Sequence record: PP488543.1
Reading direction: 5' to 3' (one strand)
From: Escherichia phage BP9
Length of the DNA stretch: 64,000 nucleotides
The notes beneath the pieces are model-generated. The model searched no databases and was not told where the DNA came from. It saw nothing but the letters and a program-made list of their open reading frames with translations. The translations under genes were made by a program, and so were the position numbers. Shown here piece by piece: positions 29,716 to 63,552 of this stretch; position 1 is the first letter of the stretch; every line of letters starts with the position of its first letter.

Positions 29716-29743
29716 TGACAATCAGTACTTGCTATGATAAAAT
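29715..29743 (+). promoter_or_regulatory. sigma70-like promoter with extended -10
   Basis: TTGACA (29715-29720) N17 TAAAAT (29738-29743) preceded by TGA (TGnTAAAAT). Confidence 0.55.
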
Positions 29744-29771
29744 CCACCTATCACGTGATAATGGAGGAAAC

Positions 29772-30110
29772 ATGGCGGATACAACTAAAAAGCGTCGCCG
29801 TAGAGGCAGACCTCTGAAAGAGGAGTCCAACGCCATTCAGCTAGAGAAGAACATCCTTGATATGAAGGAATCTTTTATAGCGATGGTTCCAGAAGCTCAC
29901 AAAGTTTTAAGAGAGCTGATGTTGGACCCGAAAACCAAACAAAATATTCGTCAAAGCATTGCAGAGTATGTTCTTGATAAGGCAGACCGAATGCAGGAAG
30001 AATATGATGAGATGTTTGGTGAAGAGGAAGAGGTGGTAGTGGAAGAGGCTGAAAAACCAGCACCTTTTATGCCATTTACTACAGAAATACAGCCTGTTAG
30101 CAATAGCTAA
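29772..30110 (+). CDS. hypothetical protein with basic N-terminus and acidic C-terminus
   Basis: Start MADTTKKRRRRGRP (GGAGG SD upstream); track ORF begins further upstream at 29652 inside the structured element. Confidence 0.45.
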   Translation: MADTTKKRRRRGRPLKEESNAIQLEKNILDMKESFIAMVPEAHKVLRELMLDPKTKQNIRQSIAEYVLDKADRMQEEYDEMFGEEEEVVVEEAEKPAPFMPFTTEIQPVSNS

Positions 30111-30206
30111 AATATTTTCTTGACAAACTTTGCTTAACAGTGTAATATTGTAAACATGGTCTCCCACCTTTTCTGGCGGCTCAGGTGTAAAAGAAAGCCA
30201 CCCAGT

Positions 30207-30281
30207 GCCCTGTTAGCTTAGTGGATAAAGCAGCGGCCTTCTAAGCCGTTGACACTGGTTCGAGTCCAGTACGGGGTGCCA
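30207..30281 (+). tRNA. tRNA-Arg(TCT)
   Basis: Hand-folded cloverleaf: acceptor GCCCTGT/ACGGGGT, D stem GCTT/AAGC, anticodon loop CTTCTAA, T loop TTCGAGT, encoded CCA. Confidence 0.8.
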
Positions 30282-30411
30282 AGTTCTTTTTAATGTAGCT
30301 TACTTTAGCAGAGTAAATCTTCGGCAAGTGGCGGTAACCACTTTACCGATACCTCATAGTTAGTGGTTAGAACACTAGCTATTTTAAAAAGAATTTAAAT
30401 ATTAGTATTTA

Positions 30412-30499
30412 GGTGAGTTAATTCCGTAGGGGTAGCGGGGCAGACTGTAAATCTGTTATCATTGCGATTCGGGTGGTTCGACTCCATCACTCACCACCA
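30412..30499 (+). tRNA. tRNA-Tyr(GTA), type II with long variable arm
   Basis: Acceptor GGTGAGT/ACTCACC, anticodon arm GCAGA-CTGTAAA-TCTGT as in E. coli tRNA-Tyr, T loop TTCGACT, CCA; three extra nt between acceptor and D arm. Confidence 0.65.
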
Positions 30500-62300: not shown

Positions 62301-63447
62301 TGGGTTGGACAATAAGCTGACTCAGACGAAGAAAGACTTGTCTGCGAATATTTCTGAAACTAATAACGCCACTGTTGATCTGATTAACGGCACAGCGTCA
62401 GCTATTCGTCAAGAACTTGCTGTTGCTAAGCAGGAGATCATTGATGGTGTTGGCGATGTGTCCGAGATCAGGGCTGCAGTAGCTACAACAGCTAAGGCTG
62501 TGACCGACTTAGAGGGTAAAGTAAATGCTCAGTGGGGTACAAAAATACAGGTAGACTCCGCAGGGAATAAATATGTTGCAGGTATCCAGTTGGGGATGGA
62601 AGGGTCTGGGGGCCAAGTTCAATCCTACTTCATGGTTAGTGCAAACAATTTTGCGGTATACAATCCTGGCAATGGAACAGCAACCCTTGCTTTCGCAATC
62701 AAGAACAACCAAGCGTTCTTGAAAGACGCTTTTATAGAGAATGGCACGATCTCCTCTGCCAAGATCGCACAAGAAATTTCGTCAAACAACTACGATGGCA
62801 ACGGGTACCATAAATACGGTTGGTATATTAACAAGAACGGGCACGCCCAATTTATGGATGTGTGGGTGAAAGGCAACATCAACGCCAGTTCTGGTAACTT
62901 CACAGGGGCAGTTAACGCCACTAGTGGTACCTTCCGTGGGGATGTTTATGCCAATAATGGTAGCTTTAGAGGCACCATAGATGCAACCGGAGGTACCTTC
63001 CGTGGTCGTGTAGAAGCTTCTGTTATCCGTGCCAACCAGTTCGAAGGTGCAATTGTTGCACACAGGACTTACGGGGATTGTGCTCCAGTATATAACTCTC
63101 AGCAAAGGGTTTGCCGTTGGAGGTGGAGATACGTAGATAACGTTTCAGGTCAGGGTAAGAACGTAACATTCTTCTTTAAACTGAACGGTACTCTTGCCAG
63201 CTCCCAACTGAATGCATGGATAGCTGGTCATCAGATCCTTGCTGGCAAGAAGTATTTTAACGACAACAACGGCATGTGTGCGGTAGGGATAACAGGTCTG
63301 GGTGAACAAACTATAGACATTGTTATCGAGATTTACACACCGTGGTCAACGTCGAGCGTGACAGGTGTCACAATCTCCTGTCCCACTGTGATAGTAAGTC
63401 GTTCAAACTCTAGCTTCCAGGGACCTTGGAACGAGTCTCACGACTAA
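59302..63447 (+). CDS. large distal tail / host-specificity protein with lambda J-like segments and coiled-coil repeat array
   Basis: 1381 aa; GYFAIT...YYWYIRTTNAFGSSQFVE and AQWGTKIQVDSAGNKYVAGIQLG parallel lambda J GYFQIT...YYFYIRSVN...FVE and AMWAVKIE..HYVAGIGL; about six 42-aa tandem repeats. Confidence 0.65.
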   Translation: MPIAMIDNIVASARSSSYDWNASKAALADSLNTVTTRTLDKIFEGNKSYRSQQDRQKLLRSSAAPCSVVYGKTRTSGLLAFLEQDRDKTLHCAIVLANHPLEGIEDILIDGNPISSYGDLVSWELHNDRKTADPFMGTHCPSWSPDMIGRGISWLRASFKFDPNKFPFGLPNVTLVKVGKKCYDPRISKEVYTNNASLVILDYLRTYLKCPDETINWESFKEAANICDEAVKNADGTSERRYTINGEFDMDEAPASIMAEMLKACGADLSYVAGKYGLLVGAYYGPATMTLSEDCVCGEVKIYPEASFDKRSNTITGRFTSPTKGYSETDFPSVFVPEWIEKDGERKIIDIDYRFVTSPYQAQRVSAIFLRRARAGRIIEVTCNMRGFKFKPGRYVTMNLPSIGIVGQEMRVLEWEFTKKGGVKVKLRQDAKEWNDATGQLPDSGDVDIPISPSGVAQPQNFRYSVLQAGEITHGVLAWDNVGTYAQNIVQVRKNGEIVWTAQTVEQFVRVEGLTKGSYTATVVATSYKGGVSPEAYCEFNIQAPEAPVSVEVKQGYFAITLIPHSRDLASVSTQYDFWTSGMTRLPDTSDATVTSNATRMGVGSTWTSEGLQNDKVYYWYIRTTNAFGSSQFVECAARCYTSIEDLMPQIDAEFKKTETYKELMSTLDSSIEEVENRVTELNRYMDGRVDEAFDHMEGEFSRVDKLYAQLGDRVGIFIQETHDNFQDVNGTLTTLDQKLVATQNKFADDLSKESGKLASLIQTTNKATTDLLNQKTEALDEKIVSTRGELEDALAQESSELNSLIVSTNKTTTDLLNRKTEALDNKLTATKGELTNNLQNESAKLSSLIESTNKSTTDLLNKKTEALDEKLVAAQGELTEQIGDVEKGYLAGDKSLEGKLNTQRSELDASILSTNQATVDLLNRTSETLDQKISQTNATVSKNYTTLDGKINTAKSDLNTLISTTNKATTDLLNQKTAALTEQLTTAKGQITTNTNNITGLDNKLTQTKKDLSANISETNNATVDLINGTASAIRQELAVAKQEIIDGVGDVSEIRAAVATTAKAVTDLEGKVNAQWGTKIQVDSAGNKYVAGIQLGMEGSGGQVQSYFMVSANNFAVYNPGNGTATLAFAIKNNQAFLKDAFIENGTISSAKIAQEISSNNYDGNGYHKYGWYINKNGHAQFMDVWVKGNINASSGNFTGAVNATSGTFRGDVYANNGSFRGTIDATGGTFRGRVEASVIRANQFEGAIVAHRTYGDCAPVYNSQQRVCRWRWRYVDNVSGQGKNVTFFFKLNGTLASSQLNAWIAGHQILAGKKYFNDNNGMCAVGITGLGEQTIDIVIEIYTPWSTSSVTGVTISCPTVIVSRSNSSFQGPWNESHD

Positions 63448-63455
63448 CCTTTAAA

Positions 63456-63480
63456 GCCCCGCTTCGGCGGGGTTTATTTT
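63456..63480 (+). terminator. rho-independent terminator
   Basis: AGCCCCGC-TTCG-GCGGGGT followed by TTATTTTTAT. Confidence 0.75.
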
Positions 63481-63490
63481 TATGCTCAGA

Positions 63491-63519
63491 TTGACTATTG
63501 TTACAAAATTTGGTAAAAT
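63491..63519 (+). promoter_or_regulatory. sigma70-like promoter with extended -10
   Basis: TTGACT (63491-63496) N17 TAAAAT within TGGTAAAATA (63511-63520). Confidence 0.6.
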
Positions 63520-63552
63520 ACCTTGTAGAGATTTTCATACCGGAGGAGTGAC

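What the first reader, a model, noticed from the sequence alone, without database searches (positions are those of the whole stretch)
29735..63520. Recurrent extended -10 promoter motif TG-N-TAAAAT (four times as exact 10-mer TGGTAAAATA)
TGGTAAAATA occurs at 40021, 43541, 57695 and 63511, and TGATAAAAT at 29735. Each lies 25-50 nt upstream of a gene start and usually just after a terminator, and three have a TTGACA-like -35 at exactly 17 nt. This defines a phage promoter class for the late/structural operons that would work with host sigma70 through an extended -10.
Basis: seen in the sequence. Interest (0 to 1): 0.5.

Follow-up and report, generated by a model that had tools for sequence, protein, structure and literature searches.

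The report
Known late-gene promoters of rV5-like coliphage
The repeated TGGTAAAATA motif is real and marks host-type (sigma-70, extended -10) promoters in front of the head, tail and fibre operons of an rV5-like E. coli phage, but the same sites were published for phage rV5 in 2013, so this is ordinary.

Summary
TGGTAAAATA occurs four times, at the stated coordinates, all on the + strand (0.18 expected, 0 of 100 shuffles). The window is a Vequintavirus (rV5-like coliphage).

The element is larger than reported. It is a two-part promoter, TTG-N17-TGnTAnAAT. This pattern matches exactly 8 times in the window (0.23 expected). All 8 are intergenic, on the gene strand and in front of genes. None of the 13 coding-region TGnTAnAAT copies has the TTG.

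Across a near-identical 139-kb genome there are 10 matches, 8 in the head/tail/fibre (late) module. The site before the tail-completion ("neck") gene is conserved in five lineages whose neck proteins are 41-49% identical to the window's (pairwise identities), and a sixth lineage carries TGTGGTATAAT. No sigma, gp55, gp33, AsiA or MotA homologue was found.

The best reading is a set of host sigma-70 extended -10 promoters heading late operons.

This is not new. Kropinski et al. 2013 list the same sites in rV5 and report the motif TggTAaAAtA, and GenBank record MT682716 annotates all eight as promoters. Start sites and timing remain unmeasured.

The parts
29715..29743 (+). Promoter TTGACA-N14-TGA-TAAAAT. 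It precedes a 112-aa gene of unknown function (ATG 29772) and the tRNA cluster at 30207-31146. It corresponds to rV5 P074.
   Evidence: PMC3606486 Table S4; annotated as a promoter in MT682716
33801..33829 (+). Promoter TTGCCA-N14-TGG-TAGAAT, between the terminase stop (33797) and the portal start (GTG 33900). It is followed by the hairpin at 33847-33868. It corresponds to rV5 P064.
35476..35504 (+). Promoter TTGCAA-N14-TGA-TAAAAT(A). It precedes the operon of prohead protease (35524-35943), a 325-aa gene, a decoration protein and the major capsid protein. Klebsiella phage KNP2 has an orthologous TTGCAA-17-TGTTAAAATA.
40001..40029 (+). Promoter TTGCTT-N14-TGG-TAAAAT(A). It precedes the operon running from the tail-completion (neck) gene (ATG 40048) through sheath (41570-42946) and tube (42957-43430). 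It corresponds to rV5 P056.
43447..43470 (+). Intrinsic terminator that ends the neck-sheath-tube operon.
43521..43549 (+). Promoter TTGACA-N14-TGG-TAAAAT(A). It precedes the tail assembly chaperone gene (43593-44066). It corresponds to rV5 P051 and is present only in Vequintavirus.
46728..46745 (+). Intrinsic terminator after the tape-measure gene.
46760..46788 (+). Promoter TTGTAA-N14-TGA-TACAAT(A). It precedes the baseplate and fibre operon (46822-57635). Relatives have TGATAAAAT, TGCTAAAAT or TGTTAAAAT at this position.
57643..57662 (+). Intrinsic terminator after the 1270-aa fibre gene.
57675..57703 (+). Promoter TTGCGT-N14-TGG-TAAAAT(A). It precedes 57735-63447, which includes the 1381-aa fibre gene. 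It corresponds to rV5 P040.
63454..63475 (+). Intrinsic terminator after the 1381-aa fibre gene.
63491..63519 (+). Promoter TTGACT-N14-TGG-TAAAAT(A). It precedes the next tail gene (GTG 63553). It corresponds to rV5 P036.

Best explanation
The motif is the extended -10 half of eight two-part promoters with the consensus TTGnnn-N14-TGn-TAAAAT-A. These promoters are read by the host RNA polymerase carrying sigma-70.

Proposed recognition, inferred from established sigma-70 biology (my own knowledge):
- Sigma region 4 contacts the TTG at -35.
- Sigma region 3 contacts the TG at -15/-14.
- Sigma region 2 contacts T-12, A-11 and T-7.

Each promoter sits at the head of a morphogenesis operon, usually just after the terminator of the preceding operon. 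The late region is therefore a chain of terminator-promoter-operon units.

Five of the eight have a weak -35 (TTGC.. or TTGT..), and the TG would compensate for that.

Shown here: sequence, position, orientation, statistics, conservation, and the absence of a detectable phage sigma.

Inferred: Late timing is inferred only from the genes served.
For: - The pattern TTG-N17-TGNTANAAT matches 8 times in the window against 0.23 expected (0 of 100 shuffles). All 8 are intergenic, on the + strand and upstream of genes.
- None of the 13 coding TGNTANAAT hits has the TTG (Fisher P = 5e-6).
- The near-identical genome PQ014731 has 10 matches, 8 in the head/tail/fibre module.
- An unbiased k-mer count ranks GTAAAA, TAAAATA and GGTAAAAT at or level with the top in late-region spacers. 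TTGACAAA tops the spacers of the minus-strand region.
- The neck promoter is conserved as TTG(A/C)(T/G)T..(G/A)TGGTAAAATA in five lineages whose neck proteins are 41-49% identical to the window's, while the flanks diverge. A sixth lineage has TTGAAA-17-TGTGGTATAAT, the sigma-70 consensus hexamer.
- Variation across sites and lineages falls on hexamer positions 3 and 4 and in the spacer. It never falls on T-12, A-11, T-7 or TG.
- phmmer found no homologue of RpoD, T4 gp55, gp33 or AsiA among all ORFs of 40 aa or more (E > 0.8).
- The same sites are listed as sigma-70-like promoters or late-promoter motifs in rV5. They are annotated as promoters in MT682716.
Against: - No transcription start site or time-course data for any Vequintavirinae phage was found in the searchable literature.
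- TAAAAT followed by A is over-represented: TAAAAT in 8 of 10 sites against 0 of 30 other rV5 promoters, and the following A in 9 of 10. Sigma-70 contacts alone do not require this.
- Three members have near-consensus -35 and -10 elements plus TG. These should fire on naked DNA at any time, so late timing, if real, needs an extra control that is not identified here.
- Site 29715 serves a small unknown gene and tRNAs, not structural genes.
Confidence: 0.8

Rival explanations
1. Sigma-70 reads the promoters, but late timing depends on a phage protein. The protein would either remodel the polymerase (for example an AsiA- or P23-45 gp39-like binder of sigma region 4, or the Srd-like protein) or bind the promoters. 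Early TTGACA/TATnnT promoters would be shut off, and the TGnTAAAATA class would stay on or be switched on.
For: - There are two sequence classes. Early and middle promoters have TTGACA plus TATnnT and an A-rich upstream stretch. Late promoters have a variable -35 plus TGnTAAAAT(A).
- TAAAAT is class-specific (P = 6e-7).
- Two relatives have late promoters with only a T-tract at -35.
- A Srd-like "decoy of sigma70" protein is encoded at PQ014731 34625-35614 (PHROG matches, E about 1e-10 to 1e-12).
- The neck promoter has a conserved TTGnTTTTGCT upstream block.
Against: - No AsiA or MotA homologue was found.
- The Srd-like match is weak and the protein also matches HNH endonuclease families.
- TTG at -35 is kept in all ten sites, which argues that region 4 contact still matters.
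- No shared operator-like sequence is present across the eight sites.
Confidence: 0.25
2. The motif is a T4-type late promoter recognised by a phage-encoded late specificity factor rather than by sigma-70. Kropinski et al. raised this resemblance to TATAAATA.
For: - The motif resembles TATAAATA in its 3' half (AAATA). Kropinski et al. noted the resemblance.
- The A after the hexamer is strongly conserved (9 of 10).
Against: - T4 late promoters have no -35 element, whereas here TTG sits at 17 bp in every site.
- TATAAATA itself occurs 6 times in the window. Only one copy is intergenic, and it is on the other strand in the replication region.
- gp55 and gp33 have no homologue (E > 3). The rV5 paper found none either.
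- A sister lineage carries TATAAT followed by T at the orthologous site.
Confidence: 0.05
3. The repeats are non-functional copies of a duplicated spacer cassette, or chance matches.
For: Four copies share an identical 10-mer, which could reflect duplication.
Against: - The flanks of the copies are unrelated.
- Positions are conserved across genera while flanks diverge.
- The shuffle statistics exclude chance.
Confidence: 0.02

Closest known systems
rV5 promoters P036, P040, P051, P056 and P074, and the "putative late promoter" motif TggTAaAAtA (Kropinski et al. 2013, Virol J 10:76, Additional file 4)
   Same: These are the same sites in a 95-98% identical genome. The sequences are identical or differ by one spacer base. 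The paper states that 11 of 33 rV5 promoters have extended -10 regions and that the late-gene motif was found by MEME.
   Different: The paper compared the motif with the T4 late promoter. It did not list the 35476 site. For P048 it aligned a different stretch from the one conserved in other genera. It did not point out the universal TTG at 17 bp.
E. coli sigma-70 extended -10 (TGn) promoters
   Same: TG lies one base upstream of a TAnnnT hexamer, with a 17-bp spacer to a TTG-containing -35.
   Different: The hexamer is almost always TAAAAT and is followed by A. Independence from the -35 element is untested.
Thermus phage P23-45 middle/late promoters, and the AsiA logic of T4 (from my own knowledge, not tested here)
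   Same: In both, a phage uses the host sigma and relies on extended -10 promoters for its later genes.
   Different: Those promoters lack a -35 element and depend on known phage proteins that bind sigma region 4. Here the TTG at -35 is retained and no such protein was identified.
T4 late promoters (TATAAATA; gp55, gp33, gp45)
   Same: An A/T-rich element at -10 lies in front of morphogenesis genes.
   Different: The octamer is absent, a -35 element is present, and no gp55 or gp33 homologue exists.

Membership tests
Sigma-70 extended -10 promoter | -10 hexamer with T-12, A-11 and T-7 (TAnnnT) | tested here: met
   8 of 8 sites: TAAAAT six times, TAGAAT once, TACAAT once. These positions are invariant across genera.
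Sigma-70 extended -10 promoter | TG at -15/-14, one base upstream of the hexamer | tested here: met
   8 of 8 in the window and 10 of 10 genome-wide, though TG is part of the search pattern. For comparison, 9 of 30 other rV5 promoters have it.
Sigma-70 extended -10 promoter | -35 element (TTGACA-like) 16-18 bp upstream of the hexamer | tested here: met
   TTG at exactly 17 bp in 8 of 8 intergenic sites and in 0 of 13 coding-region motif copies.
Sigma-70 extended -10 promoter | Intergenic position, co-oriented with and upstream of a gene | tested here: met
   All 8 sites, with 18-70 nt between the hexamer and the start codon.
Sigma-70 extended -10 promoter | Initiation by E. coli sigma-70 holoenzyme about 7 nt downstream, and activity without a -35 element | not testable with these tools
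   This needs in vitro transcription or 5'-end mapping. No such data were found in the literature.
rV5 late-promoter motif (Kropinski 2013) | Sequence identity to the listed rV5 sites | tested here: met
   P036, P040, P051, P056 and P074 match the five sites of the finding.
T4-type late promoter | TATAAATA octamer at -10 with no -35 element | tested here: not met
   No TATAAATA in late-region spacers. TTG at -35 in every site.
T4-type late promoter | Phage-encoded gp55 and gp33 | tested here: not met
   phmmer against all ORFs of 40 aa or more in PQ014731 and the window gave best E-values of 3.4 (gp55) and 3 (gp33). A remote fold-level relative cannot be excluded.
T4 middle promoter (sigma appropriation) | MotA box at -30 plus MotA and AsiA proteins | tested here: not met
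   TGCTT-like sequence occurs only at the neck promoter and is offset by about 3 bp. AsiA best E = 0.86. MotA best E = 0.067, to a protein with no supporting Pfam or PHROG hit.
P23-45-type extended -10 late promoters without a -35 element | Absence of a -35 element | tested here: not met
   TTG is retained at 17 bp in all window sites. Only two orthologues, in Certrevirus and phage A73, have a T-tract there.
P23-45-type extended -10 late promoters without a -35 element | Phage protein that binds sigma region 4 (gp39- or gp76-like) | not tested

The most novel reading that the evidence does not exclude
The TGnTAAAAT-A promoters are a separately regulated late class conserved across Vequintavirinae and their Aeromonas-phage relatives. 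An as yet unidentified phage protein would silence the TTGACA/TATnnT early promoters or activate the late class. That would be a late-transcription switch unrelated to T4 gp55/gp33 or AsiA/MotA.
Probability: 0.2. Interest if true: 0.5.

Novelty: already known. Interest (0 to 1): 0.15.

Why it matters
rV5-like phages are widely used in E. coli O157 biocontrol and in therapy cocktails, and their transcription programme has never been measured. A clean two-part definition of their late-operon promoters gives exact targets for 5'-end mapping and reporter assays. It also helps annotate the many related genomes. The promoters themselves are a published prediction, so the finding adds little beyond confirmation and a sharper definition.

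Tried and rejected
- **T4-like late machinery.** T4 gp55, gp33, AsiA and MotA were fetched and searched with phmmer against every ORF of 40 aa or more in PQ014731 and the window. Nothing was significant.
- **The one marginal hit.** MotA matched PQ014731 58618-59889 at E = 0.067. That gene lies next to the tenth genome-wide motif copy. It has no supporting Pfam or PHROG annotation, so I dropped it.
- **A phage sigma.** E. coli RpoD, full length and regions 2-4, gave no hit.
- **A nearby late regulator.** Pfam and PHROG scans of the eight small genes between the divergence point and the terminase gave only a winged-helix protein (27338-27688) annotated as a replication initiator, plus proteins of unknown function.
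- **A shared operator.** An inverted-repeat scan found repeats at 40010/40025 and 43528/43557, but with unrelated sequences.
- **Literature.** Searches for the motif string and for transcriptomics of Vequintavirinae found only the 2013 rV5 paper. The PVP-SE1 genome paper is not held.
- **Gene calling.** My first crude gene caller picked internal starts and was replaced.
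Full report
**What the window is.** Positions 39000-46000 are 100% identical to Escherichia phage VB-EcoM-WM (PQ014731) and 95-99% identical to more than 100 rV5-like coliphages of the genus Vequintavirus. Genes run on the minus strand up to about 26.2 kb; these are nucleotide metabolism and replication genes. From there they run on the plus strand: small genes, a tRNA cluster, terminase, portal, head, tail and fibres.

**Checking the observation.** TGGTAAAATA occurs exactly four times, at 40021, 43541, 57695 and 63511. All are on the + strand, against 0.18 expected, and 0 of 100 shuffles reach four. TGATAAAAT is at 29735. The relaxed pattern TGNTAAAAT gives 11 hits against 4.1 expected. 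Six of them lie in the roughly 9% of the window that is non-coding (P = 2e-4). The five coding hits are what chance predicts. The stated distances to start codons, the terminators before 43541, 57695 and 63511, and the three TTGACA-like -35 boxes at 17 bp are all correct.

**What is really there.** The motif is the downstream half of a two-part element.
- All five reported sites have TTG exactly 17 bp upstream of the hexamer.
- The pattern TTG-N17-TGNTANAAT matches exactly eight times on both strands of the window, against 0.23 expected (0 of 100 shuffles).
- All eight matches are intergenic, on the + strand and directly upstream of genes.
- None of the 13 coding-region copies of TGNTANAAT has the TTG (Fisher P = 5e-6).
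- An unbiased k-mer count places GTAAAA, TAAAATA and GGTAAAAT at or level with the top in late-region spacers. In the spacers of the minus-strand region, TTGACAAA comes first.

The eight promoters head these units:

| Promoter | Genes served |
|---|---|
| 29715 | a small gene of unknown function, then the tRNA cluster |
| 33801 | portal |
| 35476 | prohead protease (Pfam S78_2), a 325-aa gene, decoration protein, major capsid protein |
| 40001 | tail-completion ("neck") gene through sheath and tube |
| 43521 | tail assembly chaperone |
| 46760 | baseplate up to the 1270-aa fibre |
| 57675 | genes up to the 1381-aa fibre |
| 63491 | the next tail gene |

Strong intrinsic terminators at 38411, 43447, 44330, 46728, 57643 and 63454 separate these units.

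**Whole-genome distribution.** In the near-identical 139-kb genome the exact 10-mer occurs only at these four places. The two-part pattern occurs ten times. Eight are the window's sites. One lies before a tail-fibre gene just beyond the window (rV5 P030). One lies in a block of small genes at 58180. That puts eight of the ten in the head/tail/fibre module; the other two are 29715 and 58180. Nine of the ten are followed by A.

**Conservation.** I fetched the sheath neighbourhood from six relatives. Five belong to other Vequintavirinae lineages (Seunavirus, Mydovirus, Certrevirus and two with no genus assigned) and one is an Aeromonas phage. Sheath identity to the window is 41-59%. I also fetched 35 IMG/VR loci using the neck protein.
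- Upstream of the neck gene, TGGTAAAATA is invariant in five lineages (41-49% neck identity) and in the genus-level loci (97-100%). It is preceded by G in all but L032, and TTG(C/A)(T/G)T sits at 17 bp. The flanks are scrambled.
- A sixth lineage (76% neck identity) has TTGAAA-17-TGTGGTATAAT followed by T. That hexamer is the sigma-70 consensus, so TAAAAT and TATAAT substitute for each other.
- After the tape-measure terminator, relatives carry TGATAAAAT, TGCTAAAAT or TGTTAAAAT. Two of them have only a T-tract at -35.
- Klebsiella phage KNP2 has TTGCAA-17-TGTTAAAATA between portal and protease, orthologous to 35476.
- The Aeromonas relatives use TTGAAA-17-TGnTAAGAT or TGGTATAAT before late genes.
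- Across all these sites, variation falls on hexamer positions 3 and 4 and in the spacer. It never falls on T-12, A-11, T-7 or TG. This is the tolerance pattern expected for sigma-70 (established knowledge).
- Within the genus, differences among the window, WM and Gotham are confined to spacer and flanks.

**Who reads it.**
- phmmer with E. coli RpoD and with T4 gp55, gp33, AsiA and MotA, run against every ORF of 40 aa or more in PQ014731 and the window, found nothing significant.
- The single marginal MotA hit (E = 0.067) has no Pfam or PHROG support.
- No RNA polymerase or sigma gene is annotated. The literature says the same for rV5 and for the related phage CB7.
- T4-type late promoters lack a -35 element and use TATAAATA. 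That octamer is absent from the late spacers.

The best-supported reading is therefore host sigma-70 holoenzyme acting on promoters with an extended -10.

**Is it a distinct class?** Partly.
- TG is not specific: 9 of 30 other published rV5 promoters have it, and so do several minus-strand promoters in the window.
- What is specific is TAAAAT (8 of 10 against 0 of 30, P = 6e-7), the following A, and the often weak -35 (TTGC.. or TTGT.. in five of eight).
- The comparison set was selected for a match to TTGACA and TATAAT, so the -35 contrast is partly an effect of how those promoters were chosen.
- How late timing is achieved, and whether it exists at all, remains unknown. Three members are near-consensus promoters that should fire at any time.

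**Comparison with what is known.** The finding is a rediscovery.
- Kropinski et al. 2013 (PMC3606486) report 33 sigma-70-like promoters in rV5, 11 of them with extended -10 regions. They also report a MEME motif, TggTAaAAtA, upstream of late genes 27-66.
- Their Table S4 lists P036, P040, P051, P056 and P074 with the same sequences as the five sites of the finding.
- GenBank record MT682716 (phage Gotham) annotates all eight 29-bp elements as promoters predicted by PhagePromoter.
- This analysis adds four things: the universal TTG at 17 bp, the 35476 member, the cross-genus footprint, and evidence against the T4-late analogy those authors raised.
- I found no start-site or time-course data for this subfamily.

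**Verdict.** The feature is already known and ordinary. Interest is low.

Noticed in passing
window 33801-33900: The promoter at 33801-33829 is followed by a terminator-like hairpin (33847-33868, TAGCCCTC/GAGGGCTA, then TTTTGTTATA), which starts about 10 nt after the predicted start site. The portal start codon (GTG 33900) comes after it. The order is therefore promoter, terminator, gene, as for rV5 P064 and t064ABC. This could attenuate portal transcription relative to the capsid operon that restarts at 35476. Other genera have only 16 bp between terminase and portal.
   Followed up: partly
window 43528-43565: A perfect 9-nt inverted repeat, TGCACCATA / TATGGTGCA, with 20 nt between the arms, brackets the extended -10 and the predicted start of the chaperone promoter. 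It is also present in rV5 P051. It could be an operator for a dimeric regulator. No equivalent shared sequence exists at the other promoters.
   Followed up: partly
L005 10890-10966, L006 10974-11056, L007 10896-10968, L008 10890-10966, L009 10902-10983: In the other Vequintavirinae genera the spacer between tail tube and chaperone has no promoter. Instead it has a conserved long hairpin (consensus CGTGTGCCACATGGAnGTGGCC...CACACG) without a clear U-tract. Vequintavirus has a terminator plus a promoter at that position.
   Followed up: no
search results for window 39000-46000 and for the sheath protein: Between 18 and 23 GenBank records named "Campylobacter phage", with host given as Campylobacter jejuni, match this coliphage group. 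The organism tallies give the counts. Host labels may be wrong or the samples contaminated.
   Followed up: no
window 1-35500 compared with PQ014731: The window is identical to phage WM to the right of about 35.5 kb. To the left the offset between the two changes repeatedly, and many 40-mers do not match. WM carries HNH and homing endonuclease genes inside nrdD and near the endolysin. The window may therefore come from a different, mosaic isolate.
   Followed up: no
window 30803-30901: ARAGORN calls a 99-nt tRNA-like gene with a four-base anticodon (atcc) inside the tRNA cluster (Arg-TCT, Ser-TGA, Thr-TGT, Met-CAT, Pro-TGG). Gotham annotates a 97-nt tRNA-Lys at the equivalent place. It may contain an intron or be a degenerate tRNA.
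   Followed up: no
window 40001-40012 and the orthologous sites in L005-L009 and L020-L043: The -35 region of the neck promoter carries a conserved doubled block, TTG(C/A)TTTTG(C/A)T. It superficially resembles the T4 MotA box (TGCTT) but is offset by about 3 bp. No MotA homologue was found.
   Followed up: partly
window 13091 (minus strand): The minus-strand promoter TTGACT-N..-TGGTATAAAATAGG (rV5 P105) contains TGGTA-TA-AAATA. That is the late motif with a TA insertion, and it lies in the nucleotide-metabolism region.
   Followed up: no
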